DNA of 64,000 nucleotides, taken from a virus. Positions 22,647-39,008 of this stretch are shown piece by piece. A program made the translations under genes and the position numbers. Position 1 is the stretch's first letter. The number at the start of each line of letters is the position of its first letter. The notes below the pieces were generated by a model, which saw only the letters and a list, made by a program, of their open reading frames with translations, made no database searches and was not told where the DNA came from. The DNA lies in the IMG/VR virus record IMGVR_UViG_3300047160_005727, positions 77,144-141,143 of that record; one strand, 5' to 3'.

Positions 22647-24099
22647 ATGCCGCTACCAGGGTTTTACAATGACAACGGAGCGCGGTCCTACCCGCTGGTG
22701 CCGTGGTCCAATGCGCTTCTGGGTGTGCCGGTGGTACCGCTTGCAACGCAGATCAGCAACTGGAACGCCACCAACGTGACTGTTACCCCAGGGCAGTGGG
22801 AAACCGAGAGCGGTGCAGGACGGGGCGGCGGTTACTGGCTGAGTACGTCGCCGTCGACAGGCGGATCAGGGAGCGTCATCTGGCAGTTCGCTGTGGTTCC
22901 AGGCCGGCAGTACCAGGTCGCGGCGACATGGCCTGGCGACCCGAAGCAGGCGAGTAACGCCCGCTTCACCATCATGGAGACCGAGGGCGAGGGCCAGGGC
23001 TACTTCCCGCTGGCGGAAGTTCGAGTTGACCAGCGGGTCGTACCGTCCCAGATCACGGATGCTGACAACGTCGGCTGGCTTGTCCTGGGGAACGTCACAC
23101 CGATCCGCACCACCCTGCTCGTCGCCGTCAACGACGACTCCGACTTCCCGGCAGTGGGCGATGCGGTCTGGGTCGAGGACATCACGCCGCCCGATCTCTC
23201 TACCCCGGTCATGATCATGCCGCCCATGAGCACCCTGCTCGACTTTGGCTGCATGGTCGGTCTTGACGCCGAGTTTGATAGTAGCATGCATGTAGTATAT
23301 CTGCATGGTATCATGCGTATCGGTGACAGGTTCTGGTTCGACTTCCGCTCGGATGCTCCTGGGCTACTGGGTCATGCATTGATATTCACCCGTACACTAG
23401 GTGACGTCGAATACACGACCGACTACGTCGAGGCGTCGCCGCTGAGTGCCCCAGCAGAGCCTTTGGATGCCCCGCAGGGCTCCCAGGGTTTGCTCTGGCA
23501 AGGCTTCCTGGTTACCGGCCTATTGGACGACCTTGCGGCCGTGATGCCCACAGACGGGGCTATGACAGCCACCACAGGCCCGCAAGTCGAGCCGGCACTG
23601 GTTCAGAACCTGGGACGTAGCTACGTCCGGACGATCAACCTGGCGAACCAGGACCGCACCCATGCAACACCCCCGGCTGGCTGCCCCGGCAGCGACGACA
23701 CAGGTGCCGACTACCCCTACGTCATCGCCGCTACCAACCTGACGGGTGATCTCCGGTTCCGGGAGGGCTACAACGTCGCGATCCGGCAGAGCGCGCGGAA
23801 CAACTCCCTGACCTTCCTGTCGGTCCAAGGCGCTGGCGCTGGCGCCCCCTGCAATGAAGTGCCGGTCTATCCCGGCGAGCAGCCCCCGAGCGACAGCAGC
23901 CTGCTCACGGGCGGGCCAGCCTGCGACGAGGTTGTCAACAGCATCAACGGGCTGGCGTCCAACCTGATCTACCTCGCGGCCGGGCTAGGTGTGCTGATCA
24001 CTATCCCGTCTGACGCCGCGAACACGCTCACGGTCGACATGAACCGCCACGACATGACGGTCTGCGGCCCAGTCCAGGTTGTATTCGAGGAGCTGCCTG

Positions 24100-24107
<8 letters not shown>
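22647..24107 (+). CDS. Tail-fibre-type protein, paralog 5, with inserted golvesin/xanthan-lyase CBD-like domain
   Basis: 'NGARSYPL', 'VNSING'; insert 'YQVAATW...ASNARFTI...VDQ...WLVLG...VGDAVWV'. Confidence 0.6.
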
Positions 24108-25127
<1,020 letters not shown>

Positions 25128-25131
<4 letters not shown>

Positions 25132-33288: not shown

Positions 33289-33672
33289 ATGCCACTTACG
33301 AACCAGAAGCTGGCGGTAGCCAAGCAATGGGTGGTCTCGAAGCAGGGCAAGTTTGCCACCGTCGGTGGCGGGCTCGGCATCAGACCCAAGATCTACGACA
33401 ACGCGGCTGCCGCCCAGTACGCCATCCAGACCAACCCCAGGCTCCGGGGTGGGGTCGTGGTCCCCTACACGATGGAGTCCAAGGCTGCTTTCGATGCCGA
33501 AGCCAACAAGGTCAACGCGGCTGCTGCGAAGACCCCCGGCAAGGCACCTGGGCCTAGCCAGGCGACGCCTGGCGTGTTCGCTACCACTACCAAGTCCAAG
33601 GCAGTGAAACCCAAGGCGACGGCTGCACCTGTCGCTCCGGGTAAACGTGCTGCCGCTGGCAAAGTAAAATGA
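33289..33672 (+). CDS. Basic Lys/Ala/Pro-rich protein (histone-H1-like tail)
   Basis: AAGGAG RBS; amino-acid composition. Confidence 0.65.
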   Translation: MPLTNQKLAVAKQWVVSKQGKFATVGGGLGIRPKIYDNAAAAQYAIQTNPRLRGGVVVPYTMESKAAFDAEANKVNAAAAKTPGKAPGPSQATPGVFATTTKSKAVKPKATAAPVAPGKRAAAGKVK

Positions 33673-33677
33673 AAGAC

Positions 33678-33731
33678 CCACCGGGGTCGCTACGCCCGCC
33701 GCGCGGCACGCCCCGTGGTGGGCGTTGTTTT
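33678..33731 (+). terminator. Possible terminator hairpin
   Basis: CCCACC-GGGG...CCCC-GGTGGG followed by TTGTTTT. Confidence 0.45.
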
Positions 33732-33769: not shown

Positions 33770-35500
33770 ATGCCCGCAGCTAACCAGAACCCACAGCCAC
33801 CCAAGGTCAACCCGGACTTCGAGAGGCGCGCTCAGATCCTCTGGGGTTCAAGCCAAAGCGCGGTGTCCGTCCGGACTACCGAGGATGGCCGGTTCATCCG
33901 CGACATCCAGACAGTCATGTCGAAGATCGCCCCTGACTGTGCAACCGTGATCTGGGACAGAGCCCGCGGCTTCAACTGGGACCGCATCGACGAGCATACC
34001 CACGTCAAGAAGCCACTACCGTTCGGTAATGGTTCAGACTACACCAACATGCTGGTAGCCCTGGAGGCTGTTGCCAAGCTGGAGTCGGGGAAGATGCGGA
34101 AGGGAGTGTTCGTCTTCCTGGATCCGCACGACGTCTTCGATGACCTGACCGAAGGCCCGGCCTGCCGGCGGGTCGTCAAGACGATGATCAACGATCTACA
34201 GCTCTGCACACCCAAGAACGACGACACTGGCGATCCAGGGCACCGGCGTCAGATCATCTTCGTGTCACCGGTGCCGATCCACCGAGAGCTGCACGAGTAC
34301 GTCGTGCCGCTCGACTACCCTCGTCCCACCGAGGAAGAGCACGAAGAGACGGTCAAGGTCGTCGAGAGCGGTACCTCCGGCAAGAAGTGCTCAGACGAGA
34401 TCCGGGAAGCCCTTGCTGCAATAGGCATCGGCCTGACCTGGATCCAGTTCGAGAACGCCGTGGCCGAGGCCACTCACGCGCACAAGGGCTTCGAGCCCGC
34501 TGTGCTGGATACGGTCGAGCAGAAGAAGGCTGACCTGATCGCCCAGCAGGGCTTTCTTACCTACGTCCCGTTCAACCGGCTACCCAAGGATGGCGAGGTT
34601 CGCGGCTTCGAGGAAGTCCATGAGTTCCTGGCCATGCAGGCCCAGTCCTACAAACAGGAAGTCATGGGCCTGGACAGGCCCAAGGGCATGCTGCTCATGG
34701 GAGTGGCCGGCACCGGCAAGAGCATGATGGGCAAGCTGGCTGCCCGCATCTTCTACAACGCAACCGGCAAGCGGTTTCCGGTCTACCTGCTCAACGTGCC
34801 GGCTCTGTTCGGCGGCATCGTGGGCCAGACCGAGGCCAATGTCCGCTGGGTCACCGAGACCCTGAGTGCTCAGGGCCACTACCTGCTGGTGATCGATGAG
34901 CTGGAGAAGATGCTTGCGACTGGCGGCTACAACGGCGACTCGGGTGTCTCGCTGAGAGCGGTCGGCCAGATCCTGTCGTGGCTGTCCGAGCGGGTCAACA
35001 ACCCGAACGACAAGGGCTACATCATCGGTACCCTGAACACGATCGAGGGCATCAGGCCGGAGTTCTTCCGCCGGTTCGACGCCGCCTTCTACACCGATCT
35101 ACCTTACCCTGAGATCCGCAAGGAGATCATCACCAGCCACTTCCAGCGGCGTGGTGTGAACGTCGCCAAGCTGGTTGGTGCGGATGGCACGCCACTGACT
35201 GGCGATGACTGGGACGCGCTCATTACCGGCACCGAGAACTTCATCGGCTCCGAGCTGGAGGATGTCGTCACCCAGTCGCGGGCGCTGGCTGCTTACAAGC
35301 GCGGCGTCTCCGTACCGATCTTCGAGGAGATCGAGCAGACGGTCAGGAACCGGGCTCAGAACATCGTGGCCAAGACCCACAAGCACGATGTGGACTCCGT
35401 TCGTGACTACTGCAAGTCGTCAGCCCGCCCTGTCTACGTCCAGAAGGTGACCGCGAACAAGATCGCCAAGCGGTCGCGCCAGGTAAACACTGGAGAGTGA
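33770..35500 (+). CDS. AAA+ ATPase, Ycf46-like (degenerate N-terminal and intact C-terminal AAA domain)
   Basis: Walker A GVAGTGKS, Walker B LLVIDELEK, 'DSGVS', sensor 'GTLN', Arg finger 'RRFD', 'FIGSELE'. Confidence 0.85.
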   Translation: MPAANQNPQPPKVNPDFERRAQILWGSSQSAVSVRTTEDGRFIRDIQTVMSKIAPDCATVIWDRARGFNWDRIDEHTHVKKPLPFGNGSDYTNMLVALEAVAKLESGKMRKGVFVFLDPHDVFDDLTEGPACRRVVKTMINDLQLCTPKNDDTGDPGHRRQIIFVSPVPIHRELHEYVVPLDYPRPTEEEHEETVKVVESGTSGKKCSDEIREALAAIGIGLTWIQFENAVAEATHAHKGFEPAVLDTVEQKKADLIAQQGFLTYVPFNRLPKDGEVRGFEEVHEFLAMQAQSYKQEVMGLDRPKGMLLMGVAGTGKSMMGKLAARIFYNATGKRFPVYLLNVPALFGGIVGQTEANVRWVTETLSAQGHYLLVIDELEKMLATGGYNGDSGVSLRAVGQILSWLSERVNNPNDKGYIIGTLNTIEGIRPEFFRRFDAAFYTDLPYPEIRKEIITSHFQRRGVNVAKLVGADGTPLTGDDWDALITGTENFIGSELEDVVTQSRALAAYKRGVSVPIFEEIEQTVRNRAQNIVAKTHKHDVDSVRDYCKSSARPVYVQKVTANKIAKRSRQVNTGE

Positions 35501-35501
35501 C

Positions 35502-35696
35502 ATGCCCAAGCAGATCATCTTCGATATCGATCCGGCGACCGGTGGTGTGACCATCGAGGCCAAGGGCTTCAAGGGCCCCGAGTGCAAGACCGCTACCGCT
35601 CCCTACGAGAAGCTCTTCGGAACCCCCGAGTCTGATACGCCCACCAAGGAGATGGGCGCCAAGACCGTGGAGCATGTCAAGCAGACCCAGGGGTAG
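35502..35696 (+). CDS. DUF2997-family small protein
   Basis: 'IIFDIDP..G.VTIEAKGFKGPECKTATAPYEKLFG...TKE' matches the family pattern as recalled; adjacent to Ycf46-like ATPase. Confidence 0.8.
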   Translation: MPKQIIFDIDPATGGVTIEAKGFKGPECKTATAPYEKLFGTPESDTPTKEMGAKTVEHVKQTQG

Positions 35697-35698
35697 CC

Positions 35699-36058
35699 AT
35701 GCTGAAAGAGCTGGTCTTTGATATCGGCCCGGACGGGATCGTTCGCTACATACACAGCGACGAAGCCGTTCGACTGGCGGCCGGGCTCGGCCGTCCAGTC
35801 ATCAACCGGGCCAGCCATGTCGAGTACGACAACGAGAAGGGTGGATGGACGGCCGACATGTCCCCGTTAGGATCATCTACGATCCTCGGCCCGTTCACCA
35901 CCAGGGATGAAGCCCTCGAACGTGAGCATACATGGCTCATGGAAAACATGCCGGCGCTGCTATGTGGGCAGTGTCGCGAAGCTGACCTTCCATTGGAGTC
36001 CCGACATGAGTACAGCCACCATGGCACCGATGAACGTAACCTCGGACATGTCAGATGA
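35699..36058 (+). CDS. Conserved hypothetical protein of the AAA/DUF2997 module
   Basis: 'I.RASHVE...W.ADMSPLG...LGPF..RDEAL..E..WL' resembles the small protein recalled from planctomycete versions of this locus. Confidence 0.65.
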   Translation: MLKELVFDIGPDGIVRYIHSDEAVRLAAGLGRPVINRASHVEYDNEKGGWTADMSPLGSSTILGPFTTRDEALEREHTWLMENMPALLCGQCREADLPLESRHEYSHHGTDERNLGHVR

Positions 36059-37040
36059 TACCCCGGTCGACAGCATCAAGCTGGACACGGACATCTATCT
36101 GATCTCTATCAAAAAGCACTACTGGAGCGGCGAGCACGTGCTCGATGACAGGGCCAAGGCCCGGGTCGAAGTCAAGGGCCAGACGGTTGACTCCGATCTG
36201 CTCAAGAAGTCGACCGTGCTCTTGATCCCCAAGAAGCTGCGGAGCGTGTTGACGCCTGGCTACTCGGCGGTCGATAGCGTGATCATCCGGTACACTACTA
36301 ACTTCACCGGTGCCCGGGCGCTCGCTGCGGCATCCAAGGCTGCCTTCTTCAAGGACCTGAAGGAAGCTCGGGCCATCCTGGACGAATGCGTCGAGAGCTT
36401 CGTCGAGCGCTATCCCGACGAGGTCATCGAGTACAACAAGGCGCGTTGGGAGAAGACCCTGGGCGATGACTATCCGTTGTTCATCGGTCGGTTGATCCCG
36501 AGCGCCGACGCTGTTGGTTCGCGGTACGGCTACAGTGTCCGCGACATCCGCCGGCTGGAAGCCCCCAGCGCCGAGTACAAGGCGCTGCTCAAGCTCGACA
36601 AGGAGATGCTCGCTGAGGTCCGCAAGAACAAGCGAGCCGACTACGAGGCGGCCATGGATGAGCTGGTGTCCGGTCCTCGACTGACACTGGCTTCAGCCAT
36701 GGACGATCTGATCAAGCAGCTCTCTGCGGGCAAGATCCTCAAGCGGGGGTCATTCAACGGCGTGCTGGATGCTATCGCTCTCAACCGGGCGTTCGCCGGC
36801 ACCATCACCGATGCCAAGTTGCTGGCGGCAGCAACGGCACTCGAGAAGAAGATCGGCGAGGCGATCGAAGATGCCGAGACCAACGTGAGCAGCACCCAGA
36901 CCTGGTCTGATCTGCTCTGGAAGCACAAGGCGACGCTCACCGAGGCCATCGGGCCTGTGGCTGAAGCCACCAAGGACTCCGCTGCGGTGGAGCAGGTCCG
37001 TCGACACCTGAATGCGAGGGTACGCCCGGTCGACGTGTGA
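36006..37040 (+). CDS. DUF3150-like helical protein
   Basis: 'YWSG..L', 'LLIPK..R', 'FVERY' pattern and module context. Confidence 0.55.
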   Translation: MSTATMAPMNVTSDMSDDTPVDSIKLDTDIYLISIKKHYWSGEHVLDDRAKARVEVKGQTVDSDLLKKSTVLLIPKKLRSVLTPGYSAVDSVIIRYTTNFTGARALAAASKAAFFKDLKEARAILDECVESFVERYPDEVIEYNKARWEKTLGDDYPLFIGRLIPSADAVGSRYGYSVRDIRRLEAPSAEYKALLKLDKEMLAEVRKNKRADYEAAMDELVSGPRLTLASAMDDLIKQLSAGKILKRGSFNGVLDAIALNRAFAGTITDAKLLAAATALEKKIGEAIEDAETNVSSTQTWSDLLWKHKATLTEAIGPVAEATKDSAAVEQVRRHLNARVRPVDV

Positions 37041-37065
37041 GAGGTGAAGTTGACGGAGCCCTCAC

Positions 37066-37674
37066 GTGGGCATAAAGATCATCTACGAAGTGCCGGCTGC
37101 GGCCGGCACTGCCTTCACCTACTCGGTTCAAAGGCATGAAGACGGGGCGTTCTTCGACTTCGAGCAGAAAACATTTCGTCCGCTCGAATGTATTGCGCCG
37201 CACGCAGCCCGTAGGCTGCTTCGCCGCGGCGTCAGAGGTCTGTTCGCTAACTTCAAGCACTCGGAGGTCGGCAAAAAGTATATCATCCTCGTCGTGGAAG
37301 CTAGCCCGCACGGCTCGATCATCGCCGAGGTGCCGGTAACCGACTACGGGAAAGGACAGCACATGGATCCGAGTTACCGGAAAGGTAAGAAGTTCGTGGA
37401 CGGCAAGGCGATCGATGCCAAGTATCGTCTCGTCGTCTTCGGTGATGATGGATCCACCGTCTATACCGCTACTCTGTGGGAAGACGGTACCACTTCGTGC
37501 AACTGCCCGCGGTGGGGGCCGAAGCAGCCTGGCCTGGGTCGTAGATGTATCCATTCCGTACGGGCCGCGAAACTCACCGCCAATGTCGACGAGACCGGCG
37601 AGCAGCCGGGCCCGCCGCCACCAACTCCTGGTAATAACCCGTTCCGGCGGCGCTCCCGATCTATCGATACCTGA
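37066..37674 (+). CDS. SWIM-type Zn-finger protein 1 (possible internal start 37363)
   Basis: 'SCNCP...CIH' (CxC-xn-CxH). Confidence 0.7.
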   Translation: MGIKIIYEVPAAAGTAFTYSVQRHEDGAFFDFEQKTFRPLECIAPHAARRLLRRGVRGLFANFKHSEVGKKYIILVVEASPHGSIIAEVPVTDYGKGQHMDPSYRKGKKFVDGKAIDAKYRLVVFGDDGSTVYTATLWEDGTTSCNCPRWGPKQPGLGRRCIHSVRAAKLTANVDETGEQPGPPPPTPGNNPFRRRSRSIDT

Positions 37675-37693
37675 GCGCCCAAGGAGGATCAGC

Positions 37694-38014
37694 GTGAAAC
37701 CATCTTTTCGGAGGGGCAAGAAGTTCCTCGGCGACGAGACTGTCGAACCCAAGCACCGGCTCATTACGTTCGGCAGCGACGGCGTCACCGTCTATACAGC
37801 TACCTTGTGGGTCGACGGCACTACCTCGTGTAACTGCCCGGCCTGGCGGTTCGCCAAGGGTGACACCCGGAAGTGTAAGCACTCCCTGCGTGCTGCCAGC
37901 TTGACCGCCACCATCGACGAGACAGGCACCATTCGCGCTACATCGGCCGCCACGGAGGAGTCCCAGATGGGATCCAGCCCGTTCAAGCGGCGCACCCGAT
38001 CGGTGGATACCTGA
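37694..38014 (+). CDS. SWIM-type Zn-finger protein 2 (tandem paralog)
   Basis: AAGGAGG RBS, GTG 37694; 'SCNCPAW...CKH'. Confidence 0.75.
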   Translation: MKPSFRRGKKFLGDETVEPKHRLITFGSDGVTVYTATLWVDGTTSCNCPAWRFAKGDTRKCKHSLRAASLTATIDETGTIRATSAATEESQMGSSPFKRRTRSVDT

Positions 38015-38289
38015 TGTTCCACGTCAAGTACCGAGACTTCTTCAAGAAGCTCGTGATCATGGAGGGGCGATCCGACTACGAGGACGCCGTGTCCGAAGCG
38101 GAAGACTGCGCGAGCGCAGGCCATGCCGAGGTGGAGATCCTCGTTTCCCTTGGAACTGCCGACGAGAACATGGAGCTGGCCGAGGCTGACTCCCGTCGCT
38201 TCATCGCAACGGGAGTAGAGCGCGGATGGCCCAAAGACGGCGGCCTCGACTCTTTGGCGATCCCCACATCGCCAAGCTCGGGGGGTTGA
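38014..38289 (+). CDS. Hypothetical protein
   Basis: TGATG coupling. Confidence 0.5.
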   Translation: MFHVKYRDFFKKLVIMEGRSDYEDAVSEAEDCASAGHAEVEILVSLGTADENMELAEADSRRFIATGVERGWPKDGGLDSLAIPTSPSSGG

Positions 38290-39008
38290 TCTACCCGTTC
38301 TCCATCCCGGCTCGCCGAACATGTCCGGGTAAGAGCCGCTTCTGTGCTGCGCTATGCTACGCCGACACCGGGTTCTTCGTGATGGAGAACGTCAAGCGCA
38401 AGCACATTGCTAACCTGAAGCGGACCCGCGAAGCCAGCTTCGTCGACGACGTCGTAGCCGAGATCAAGTCGCGATGCATCGCCGTCGCCCGCGTTCACAT
38501 GGCGGGTGACTTTTACTCGGCCGCCTACGGCTGGAAGTGGGTCTCGATCGTACGCCAGTGCCACCGCACCACGTTCCTCTGCTACACACGGAGCTGGACG
38601 CAGGATGCGATCATGCCGGCCCTGGCCAAGCTAGCTACCATGAAGAACATGCATCTGTGGTTCTCCACAGATCACCAGATGCCTGATGCCCCAGCTATCC
38701 CCGGGGTGCGGATCGCCTACCTGATGGCGCGAGACGAGGACCCATCCCAGGTTCCGCCCGGTCAGCACCTTGTCTTCCGCGATAATGAACACCCGCCCAT
38801 GAAGCGGGCCAACGGCGTGCTTGTTTGCCCTTATGAACAGGGCATCGACCGCCAGGTTAAGATCACGTGTTCGAGTTGTCGTATTTGTTGGACGCCAGAA
38901 AGGAAGAACCATGGCAACGAAGAAGAGAACCCGCGCAAGTCGCACTGCGAAGCCCTCCGTCGGCGCCTCCGCCAGCGGAAAGCCAAGCGAACCCGCCGGC
39001 CACGGTGA
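38226..39008 (+). CDS. Phage Gp88-like protein (radical-SAM-like Cys motif)
   Basis: 'FSIPA..TCPG....CAALCYA', 'RVHMAGDFYS', 'YTRSW', 'CP...TCSSCRICW'. Confidence 0.75.
   Translation: MAQRRRPRLFGDPHIAKLGGLIYPFSIPARRTCPGKSRFCAALCYADTGFFVMENVKRKHIANLKRTREASFVDDVVAEIKSRCIAVARVHMAGDFYSAAYGWKWVSIVRQCHRTTFLCYTRSWTQDAIMPALAKLATMKNMHLWFSTDHQMPDAPAIPGVRIAYLMARDEDPSQVPPGQHLVFRDNEHPPMKRANGVLVCPYEQGIDRQVKITCSSCRICWTPERKNHGNEEENPRKSHCEALRRRLRQRKAKRTRRPR

What the first reader, a model, noticed from the sequence alone, without database searches (positions are those of the whole stretch)
33770..38014. AAA-ATPase/DUF2997/DUF3150-like/SWIM module whose members share a C-terminal R-x-R-x-[IV]-[DN]-x tag
Seen: four proteins in one coupled run end in the same pattern: AAA ATPase ...KRSRQVNTGE, DUF3150-like ...ARVRPVDV, SWIM1 ...RRSRSIDT, SWIM2 ...RRTRSVDT. 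These represent three unrelated folds. Established: Ycf46-like ATPases co-occur with DUF2997 and DUF1257 (Ycf35) genes, and the function is unknown. No DUF1257 gene was recognised here; two SWIM fingers follow instead. Inference: the tag is a docking or substrate-selection signal for the ATPase pore or a small adaptor, which would make this an undescribed phage protein-remodelling or targeting system.
Basis: partly seen in the sequence, partly recalled or inferred. Interest (0 to 1): 0.8.

Follow-up and report, generated by a model that had tools for sequence, protein, structure and literature searches.

The report
Shared docking tail, phage AAA+ module
An uncultured ~200-kb phage carries a Cdc48-like ATPase operon in which the ATPase, a DUF3150 protein and two SWIM-finger proteins end in the same short arginine-rich peptide. 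The peptide co-evolves across these unrelated proteins in many phages, so it most likely docks them all onto one partner that is still unidentified.

Summary
Four proteins of one operon (33770-38014, + strand) end in R-x-R-x-[VI]-[DN]. The two SWIM proteins are tandem paralogs, so this is three independent cases, against about 0.2 expected for the whole 141-kb contig.

The tail is functional, not chance:
- It stays fixed in 73-81% relatives while the linker before it varies and gains indels.
- In more distant phages it changes spelling in step on all tagged proteins of a locus (permutation tests: p about 0.002-0.004 for ATPase vs DUF3150; 3 of 5040 permutations for DUF3150 vs another tagged protein).
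- 104 of 149 diverse DUF3150 representatives end in R-x-hydrophobic-x-hydrophobic, against 4% of internal windows.

The ATPase model aligns with p97/Cdc48 over both tiers, and its N-terminal tier has no P-loop. AlphaFold leaves the tails disordered. In two relatives a probable portal protein and several small proteins carry the same tail.

Best reading: a short docking motif for one shared site, probably inside the module (ATPase body, DUF2997 or the untagged 'RASHVE' protein). The receptor is not identified. Host-hub and virion-targeting readings remain open.

I found no paper on this. This scan had already noted the same tail-tagged module on at least eight other genomes.

The parts
33708..33725 (+). 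Terminator-like hairpin followed by a T-run, just upstream of the ATPase gene; probable end of the preceding transcription unit
33770..35500 (+). Ycf46-like / Cdc48-like AAA+ ATPase, 576 aa: degenerate D1-like N-terminal tier (about residues 1-260) plus an active classical AAA domain
   Evidence: PF00004 E 4e-15 and phrog_8638 E 1e-54; the closest solved sequences are Cdc48/VAT/p97; AF2 pLDDT 88.6 and alignment over about 590 columns to p97/Cdc48 D1-D2; invariant Walker A, Walker B and arginine fingers
35468..35497 (+). ATPase C-terminal tail K-R-S-R-Q-V-N-T-G-E behind a hypervariable linker
   Evidence: Tail invariant in P0001-P0007 while the linker varies; pLDDT about 50, no secondary structure
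35502..35696 (+). DUF2997 protein, 64 aa, untagged, ends in Gly; start 1 nt after the ATPase stop
   Evidence: PF11211 E 2e-10, 40.7 bits; found in 17 loci with my own HMM
35699..36058 (+). Untagged 119-aa 'RASHVE' protein (conserved R-A-S-H-V-E ... W ... L-G-P-F ... W-L); a core module family with no Pfam, PHROG or NCBIfam model
   Evidence: No family hit; my own HMM finds it in 15 loci and in 11 of the 12 extra module loci taken from related ~200-kb phages; alignment A8
36006..37040 (+). DUF3150-family protein, about 340 aa (start 36006 or 36021; overlaps the end of the previous gene): N-terminal beta region, long helical hairpin, C-terminal four-helix bundle, disordered tail
   Evidence: PF11348 E 0.0045 directly; a profile finds 5192 representatives; Atlas and BFVD nearest neighbours are DUF3150; AF2 pLDDT 89.6
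37017..37037 (+). DUF3150 tail R-V-R-P-V-D-V
   Evidence: Conserved in P0043-P0057; residues 337-344 have no secondary structure and the last two 10-residue blocks average pLDDT 80 and 51
37066..37674 (+). SWIM-like protein 1, 202 aa: N-terminal domain of about 100 aa, C-x-C-x13-C-x-H finger, Pro-rich linker, tail R-S-R-S-I-D-T (37651-37671)
   Evidence: Alignment A5: invariant C145, C147, C161, H163; 3 of 8 members hit PF04434 weakly
37694..38014 (+). SWIM-like protein 2, 106 aa, tandem paralog of the C-terminal half of SWIM1; tail R-T-R-S-V-D-T (37991-38011)
   Evidence: GTG 37694 behind AAGGAGG; PF04434 E 0.0058, 16.6 bits against a 19.6 cut-off; alignment A5

Best explanation
The tail is a short linear docking motif. 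Its core is Arg, any residue, a hydrophobic residue, any residue, then a hydrophobic residue or Thr, usually followed by an acidic or amide residue at or near the free C-terminus. It sits on a flexible linker.

It tethers the Cdc48-like ATPase, the DUF3150 protein and a changing set of accessory proteins to one common binding site. Here the accessories are two SWIM-finger proteins; in close relatives they also include a probable portal protein and several small proteins.

The site most likely lies inside the conserved module: on the ATPase body, on DUF2997 or on the untagged RASHVE protein. The tagged proteins would then be assembled around, or handed to, the ATP-driven remodelling ring.

Shown: the motif, its conservation, its co-variation and its disorder. 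Inferred: that it binds a single site, that this site belongs to the module, and that the ATPase remodels the tagged proteins.
For: 1. The tail is fixed while the linker varies and gains indels, in the ATPase, DUF3150 and the SWIM proteins.

2. The tail's spelling changes from phage to phage but stays matched within a phage, across unrelated families. Examples: R-x-V-T-E on four proteins of L006; R-A-L-T on two of L009; R-x-L-D-[LI] on three of the four tagged proteins of L010, the fourth ending R-G-I-M-L-E; R-[AR]-I-L-[LI]-D on two of L014 and L015.

3. Permutation tests: ATPase vs DUF3150 tails, p about 0.002-0.004 with one locus per lineage. DUF3150 vs another tagged protein, 3 of 5040 and 2 of 120 permutations reach the observed score.

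4. 104 of 149 DUF3150 representatives carry R-x-hydrophobic-x-hydrophobic in their last 10 residues. This compares with 4% of internal windows and 2 of 135 other genes of this phage.

5. AF2 leaves both modelled tails unstructured (pLDDT about 50 at the end) on well-folded bodies.

6. DUF2997, the RASHVE protein and DUF1257 never carry the tail, which fits a receptor or core role.

7. The module recurs in the same gene order in very different phages.
Against: - No binding was tested, and no co-fold of tail with candidate receptor could be run.
- The ATPase's own tail is a slightly different spelling (N-T-G-E after the core).
- Pore loop 1 is G-I-V-G, with an aliphatic residue, so strong unfolding activity is uncertain.
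- One tailed DUF3150 protein (L051) has no ATPase within its 8.5-kb contig.
- The tail on a probable portal suggests that the shared site could belong to the virion or the packaging machinery instead.
- Loci of the cellular type (ATPase + DUF2997 + DUF1257) show no shared tail on neighbouring genes.
- RASHVE and DUF2997 were not detected in L014 and L015.
Confidence: 0.55

Rival explanations
1. The tail is a virion or procapsid targeting peptide. It would bind the portal region, scaffold or capsid interior, as encapsulin cargo-loading peptides do, so that tagged proteins are incorporated and perhaps ejected with the DNA.
For: In relatives G001 and G002 a 656-664-aa protein carries the same tail. 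It is a probable portal: Atlas portal clusters score 0.92-0.94, and one homolog hits phrog_64 at E 4e-4. 43 of 120 of its homologs end in the motif. The layout of a C-terminal peptide behind a Pro/Gly/Ala-rich linker resembles cargo-loading peptides. The operon follows the tail-fibre genes.
Against: The tail is a family-wide feature of the ATPase and of DUF3150, which always travel with DUF2997 and RASHVE rather than with capsid genes. Many related phages keep the tailed ATPase and DUF3150 while their portal has no tail. A ring ATPase would be an odd cargo. The portal assignment itself is only a lead.
Confidence: 0.15
2. The tail binds a host hub protein, such as a sliding clamp, chaperone, protease or nucleoid protein. 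Co-variation within a phage would then reflect adaptation to that host protein.
For: Concerted change of the tail within a genome is equally expected for a host receptor. A tailed DUF3150 occurs without a nearby ATPase next to RecT and an RNA ligase (L051). Modules often sit next to replication genes: DnaB in phage SM1, a clamp-loader-like gene in L014, ParB and Ku in Firecracker.
Against: The motif matches no known host-hub motif that I could recall; in particular it is not the clamp-binding Q-L-x-L-F type (from memory, not tested). The tight genetic link of the tail with one phage module across phages of very different base composition argues for a receptor encoded by the phage.
Confidence: 0.15
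3. The tail is a degron or pore-entry signal: tagged proteins are substrates threaded from their C-terminus through the ATPase pore, as MuA is by ClpX.
For: The closest solved relatives are substrate-threading Cdc48/p97/VAT. The tail is disordered, basic and terminal.
Against: The ATPase carries the tail itself. Pore loop 1 lacks the aromatic residue (G-I-V-G; invariant F347, G348, V351, G352, E355). DUF3150 is an obligate, strictly conserved partner rather than a variable target.
Confidence: 0.1
4. Chance resemblance plus paralogy, with no shared function.
For: SWIM1 and SWIM2 are paralogs. The motif was defined after it was seen. One extra match on the contig is probably chance.
Against: About 0.2 expected against 5 seen. 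The tail is conserved in relatives behind variable linkers, co-varies within loci, and is present in 70% of DUF3150 representatives.
Confidence: 0.02

Closest known systems
Proteasome-activator docking tails: HbYX of PAN/Rpt/Cdc48, and GQYL shared by mycobacterial Mpa (an AAA+ ATPase) and Bpa (not an ATPase)
   Same: A short motif at the extreme C-terminus, on a flexible tail. It is shared by a ring ATPase and by unrelated proteins, which all dock onto one receptor.
   Different: The motif here is Arg-x-hydrophobic-x-hydrophobic with no penultimate Tyr. No 20S-like or other protease was seen near the modules. The receptor is unknown. This comparison rests on my own knowledge.
Adaptor tethering motifs of AAA+ machines: the SspB C-terminal XB peptide on the ClpX N-domain, ESCRT-III MIM motifs on the Vps4 MIT domain, and the p97 C-terminal tail on PUB/PUL cofactors
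   Same: Terminal peptides behind flexible linkers bring partners to an AAA+ ring. Several partners share the motif.
   Different: Those systems have a defined receptor domain, and the ATPase does not carry its partners' motif. Here the ATPase carries the same tail, and its N-terminal part is a degenerate ATPase tier, not a small peptide-binding domain. This comparison rests on my own knowledge.
Ycf46 (AAA) / Ycf35 (DUF1257) / DUF2997 gene set of cyanobacteria, plastids and mobile elements
   Same: The same ATPase family and DUF2997. The trio was seen here in L011 and L017, and beside a DUF3150 gene in L144-L149. A DUF2997-ycf35-fed7 cluster is recorded in cyanobacteria (PMC4284462).
   Different: The window's clade has lost DUF1257. 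The phage form adds DUF3150, the RASHVE protein and tail-tagged accessory proteins. The function of the trio itself is unknown.
Encapsulin cargo-loading peptides
   Same: Unrelated proteins share a C-terminal peptide behind a flexible linker. The shell is related to phage capsids, and a probable portal carries the tail in relatives.
   Different: The consensus differs. The tail tracks an ATPase module rather than a shell gene, and no evidence of encapsidation exists.

Membership tests
Classical-clade AAA+ ATPase (SpoVK/Ycf46/Vps4 group) | AAA domain with Walker A (G-x-x-G-x-G-K-[ST]), Walker B (D-E) and second-region-of-homology arginines | tested here: met
   PF00004 at 56.8 bits against a 21.2 cut-off. 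Invariant G311, G314, G316, K317, D376, E377, R434 and R435 across 14 homologs; in the 39-sequence alignment the same columns are invariant except R434, which is 90% or more conserved.
Cdc48/p97-type two-tier AAA+ | Two stacked ATPase-fold tiers (D1-D2) | tested here: met
   The full-length AF2 model aligns over 580-600 columns with p97/Cdc48 D1-D2 chains (E about 1e-17, TM 0.55-0.6). The first tier has no P-loop, so it is degenerate.
Cdc48/p97-type two-tier AAA+ | Aromatic pore-loop-1 residue in the translocating tier | tested here: not met
   Pore loop 1 reads G-I-V-G; family-wide it is [GS]-[IL]-V-G.
DUF2997 (PF11211) | Pfam model above its gathering score | tested here: met
   40.7 bits against 24.1.
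DUF3150 (PF11348) | Pfam model above its gathering score, or a homology chain to members that pass | tested here: met
   Directly 16.8 bits against 24.9. Close homologs P0045 and P0047-P0049 carry PF11348. Module orthologs in L014 (54.9 bits) and L020 (83 bits) pass. The top BFVD structural hit is a DUF3150 protein at E 8e-10, and Atlas neighbours carry DUF3150.
SWIM zinc finger (PF04434) | C-x-C-x(n)-C-x-H signature and the Pfam model | tested here: inconclusive
   The signature is invariant in 8 aligned members. The HMM stays below threshold: best 16.6 bits against 19.6, with 3 of 8 members hitting weakly. No solved relative by profile.
DUF1257 / Ycf35 (PF06868) | A gene of this family in the module | tested here: not met
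   No match on the 141-kb contig, while the control rings in Synechococcus elongatus. My own HMM finds it in 11 other loci but not in the window's clade.
HbYX / GQYL proteasome-docking tails | Hydrophobic-Tyr-X (or G-Q-Y-L) at the extreme C-terminus, and a 20S-type receptor | tested here: not met
   No Tyr in the tails. No peptidase or proteasome family was seen among the module genes. This is an analogy of mechanism only.
Encapsulin-type cargo-loading peptide | Tail-dependent packaging into an HK97-fold shell | not testable with these tools
   Needs virion proteomics. Only the layout (linker plus terminal peptide) is shared.

The most novel reading that the evidence does not exclude
Many tailed phages encode a dedicated 'address system'. 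A co-evolving C-terminal peptide marks an open-ended set of phage proteins (DUF3150, SWIM fingers, portal, small proteins) for a Cdc48-like ATPase complex built with DUF2997 and the RASHVE protein. That complex assembles or remodels them during infection. If so, this would also give the first functional handle on the orphan Ycf46/Ycf35/DUF2997 genes of cyanobacteria and plastids.
Probability: 0.35. Interest if true: 0.85.

Novelty: new variant of a known kind. Interest (0 to 1): 0.72.

Why it matters
Docking by short terminal motifs is how many AAA+ machines choose partners, but no such code is described for the Ycf46-like ATPases or for DUF3150. DUF3150 has more than 5000 representative clusters, mostly viral.

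The tail gives a direct and cheap experimental handle. Tail peptides can be used as bait to find the receptor. Deleting the tail, or swapping its spelling between phages, can test specificity.

Candidate cultured carriers exist. Mycobacterium phage Firecracker has the ATPase gp100 and its neighbour gp99. The Rhodobacter and Pseudomonas phages RcMenchie and SM1 also carry the ATPase, DUF1257, DUF2997 and a RASHVE-family protein.

If the portal assignment holds, the system may link a remodelling ATPase to head assembly.

Tried and rejected
- **DNA-level repeat at gene ends:** rejected, because the codons differ.
- **Fifth tagged ORF on the contig (113 aa):** no homolog in relatives, so treated as chance.
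- **Function from the DUF3150 fold:** Foldseek against the PDB gave nothing at E <= 0.001. VIA-align gave only generic four-helix bundles at Z about 9, which is within the noise range for helical proteins. No function can be read from this.
- **Sequence searches of solved structures:** DUF3150, the RASHVE protein and the SWIM profile gave nothing; SWIM1 alone gave one chance-level hit at E 0.17.
- **Cis-docking of the tails:** AF2 leaves both tails free.
- **Kinship of DUF2997 and the RASHVE N-terminal hairpin:** hhalign probability 1.6%, rejected.
- **Test of whether a portal tail occurs only in phages with the extended module:** it failed as a discriminator. Phages whose portal lacks the tail also carry DUF3150 and RASHVE, with tailed ATPase and DUF3150.
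- **tblastn of DUF3150 proteins against cultured phages:** no match.
- **Literature:** three papers mention DUF2997 and one mentions DUF3150, none on this topic. Searches for Ycf46 with phage, and for Cdc48-like with bacteriophage, gave nothing relevant.
Full report
**Setting.** The window is the 3' 64 kb of a 141-kb IMG/VR viral contig, estimated 68% complete, so the phage has a genome of roughly 200 kb. The region of the finding follows the tail-fibre genes. A terminator-like hairpin at 33708-33725 precedes it.

From 33770 to 38014 six genes run on the + strand with overlaps or gaps of at most 25 nt:
- an AAA+ ATPase (33770-35500);
- DUF2997 (35502-35696);
- a 119-aa protein (35699-36058);
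- a DUF3150-family protein (about 36006-37040);
- SWIM-like protein 1 (37066-37674);
- SWIM-like protein 2, which starts at GTG 37694 behind AAGGAGG, not at 37415.

A 91-aa ORF and a GP88-family gene (PF17338) follow on the same strand.

**The observation.** SWIM2 is a tandem paralog of the C-terminal half of SWIM1, so there are three independent occurrences. Among about 142 genes called on the whole contig, the strict motif R-x-R-x-[IVL]-[DN] in the last 15 residues is expected about 0.2 times, and 5 were seen. The fifth is a 113-aa ORF with no homolog in relatives, and I treat it as chance. The codons under the tails differ, so this is a protein-level feature.

**Families.**
- AAA (PF00004) and DUF2997 (PF11211) pass their Pfam cut-offs.
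- The DUF3150 assignment is weak directly (16.8 bits against 24.9). It is secured by close homologs annotated PF11348, by module orthologs that pass, by Atlas neighbours and by a top BFVD structural hit to a DUF3150 protein.
- The SWIM assignment stays below threshold, although C-x-C-x13-C-x-H is invariant in eight aligned members.
- The 119-aa protein has no model in Pfam, PHROGs or NCBIfam. It is nevertheless a conserved family, marked by R-A-S-H-V-E and a W-L motif. An HMM that I built found it in 15 loci, and then in 11 of 12 further module loci from related phages.

**The tail is conserved.** In relatives with 73-81% ATPase identity, all four tails are kept. The 8-12 residues before them vary and carry indels. 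That is the usual signature of a short linear motif on a flexible linker.

AlphaFold models of the ATPase (pLDDT 88.6) and the DUF3150 protein (pLDDT 89.6) leave the tails without structure, at about pLDDT 50.

**The tail co-varies within genomes.** In more distant module-bearing contigs (ATPase identity 25-57%) the spelling of the tail changes. It changes together on all tagged proteins of a locus, whatever their fold:
- one locus has R-x-V-T-E on four proteins;
- another has R-A-L-T on two;
- another has R-x-L-D-[LI] on three of its four tagged proteins;
- two AT-rich phages have R-[AR]-I-L-[LI]-D on two proteins and a close variant on the ATPase.

Permutation tests on BLOSUM scores of the last nine residues confirm this. 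Within-locus ATPase/DUF3150 pairs score higher than shuffled pairs (p about 0.002-0.004, one locus per lineage). For DUF3150 against another tagged protein, only 3 of 5040 and 2 of 120 permutations reach the observed score.

**The tail is family-wide.** A profile of the DUF3150 proteins hits 5192 representative clusters. Of the best 149, 104 carry R-x-hydrophobic-x-hydrophobic in their last ten residues, often preceded by [FY]-G. The rate is 4% for internal windows of the same proteins and 2 of 135 for other genes of this phage. The common core is therefore Arg-x-hydrophobic-x-(hydrophobic or Thr), usually followed by an acidic or amide residue. The window's R-x-R-x-V-D-T is one local dialect of it.

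**The ATPase.** Its AAA domain is closest to Cdc48/VAT/p97. The whole model aligns over about 590 columns with p97/Cdc48 D1-D2. It is thus a two-tier protein whose first tier lacks a P-loop. Walker A, Walker B and the arginine fingers are invariant or nearly so. Pore loop 1 reads G-I-V-G, with an aliphatic residue where translocating unfoldases usually have an aromatic one.

**The DUF3150 fold.** The model shows a beta-rich start, a long helical hairpin and a C-terminal four-helix bundle. It has no informative match among solved structures.

**Who is tagged and who is not.** The ATPase and DUF3150 are always tagged. A variable set of other proteins is tagged too: SWIM fingers, 80-420-aa proteins of unknown family, and others. 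DUF2997, the RASHVE protein and DUF1257 are never tagged.

A DNA pattern for the local dialect plus a stop codon finds 8 sites in the complete 226-kb relative. All lie on the coding strand, and the reversed-pattern control finds none. Three are in the module and five lie elsewhere. The five are four small proteins and a 664-aa protein.

That 664-aa protein belongs to a family of more than 1000 members at 50-60% identity. It is probably the portal: Atlas portal clusters score 0.92-0.94, and one homolog hits phrog_64 at E 4e-4. 43 of 120 of its homologs end in the motif. These genes are not on our incomplete contig.

I tested whether a tailed portal occurs only with the extended module. The test did not discriminate. 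Related phages whose portal lacks the tail also carry DUF3150 and RASHVE, with matching tails on the ATPase and DUF3150.

**Interpretation.** The evidence shows a functional, co-evolving terminal peptide shared by unrelated proteins. The simplest explanation is that they all bind one site. I place that site inside the module with moderate confidence, for three reasons:
- the tail tracks this module across phages of very different composition;
- the ATPase and DUF3150 always carry it;
- three small core proteins never do.

A pure 'degron for the pore' reading fits poorly, because the ATPase itself is tagged and its pore loop is atypical. A host hub and a virion or portal-associated site remain live rivals. 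The probable portal tail keeps the latter open.

**Novelty.** I found no paper that describes the tail or the phage module. Earlier notes of this same scan describe the same tail-tagged AAA+ module on at least eight other genomes, in some with Ku or terminase among the tagged proteins. I did not check those claims on their own DNA. They agree with what I found here and prompted the genome-wide search in the relatives.

**Cultured carriers.** Cultured phages with the ATPase include Mycobacterium phage Firecracker and other mycobacteriophages with the same match, Rhodobacter phage RcMenchie, Pseudomonas phage SM1 and Rhizobium phages.
- In Firecracker the ATPase gp100 ends R-V-L-D-L. The neighbouring gp99 carries G-R-A-I-D-F and Y-A-L-D-F near its end.
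- My DUF3150 HMM did not detect gp99. A weak structural match links the DUF3150 model to a protein of the related phage Dylan (E 1e-3).
- RcMenchie and SM1 also have DUF1257, DUF2997 and a RASHVE-family protein, but their tails match the motif less clearly and no DUF3150 was detected.

Noticed in passing
L053:11453-13447 (-), in relative G002; ortholog at L056:1528-3498: A 656-664-aa protein, probably the portal, ends in the same tail as the module proteins. 43 of 120 homologs carry the motif. The others end in Q-Q-[FY]-G followed by a Gly/Pro/Ala-rich stretch.
   Followed up: partly
L053:3104-5268 (-) and L054:2817-3320 (-): Four small proteins (217, 163, 114 and 167 aa) of the complete relative carry the same tail and match no known family. 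None lies on the window's contig.
   Followed up: partly
window 33289-33672 (+): A 127-aa protein with a Lys/Ala/Pro-rich, histone-H1-like C-terminal half lies directly upstream of the ATPase. Short K/A/P-repeat proteins hold the same position in L006 and L008.
   Followed up: no
window 38226-39008 (+): A GP88-family gene (PF17338, E 6e-34) follows the operon. The same family follows the module in L006, L008, L010 and L050, and in L010 and L050 a CsrA homolog comes soon after it.
   Followed up: no
window 35699-36058 vs 36006-37040: The RASHVE gene runs about 16 codons further than in the relatives and overlaps the DUF3150 start by about 50 nt. In L003 the two genes meet at an ATGA overlap.
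   Followed up: no
P0011 (homolog of the ATPase): One 883-aa ATPase homolog carries an intein (Hint and LAGLIDADG domains) inserted at the Walker A motif.
   Followed up: no
window 35502-35696 and orthologs: Most DUF2997 proteins of the phage modules end in Gly (Q-x-Q-G, L-G-G or T-G). The meaning is unknown.
   Followed up: no
G000:C1:6479-6820 (outside the window): A 113-aa ORF ends R-P-R-H-I-N-S. It has no homolog in two relatives, so the match is probably chance.
   Followed up: yes
window 24079-25131 (+): A collagen-like tail-fibre protein (phrog_6320, E 1e-36) marks the end of the structural block upstream of the module.
   Followed up: no
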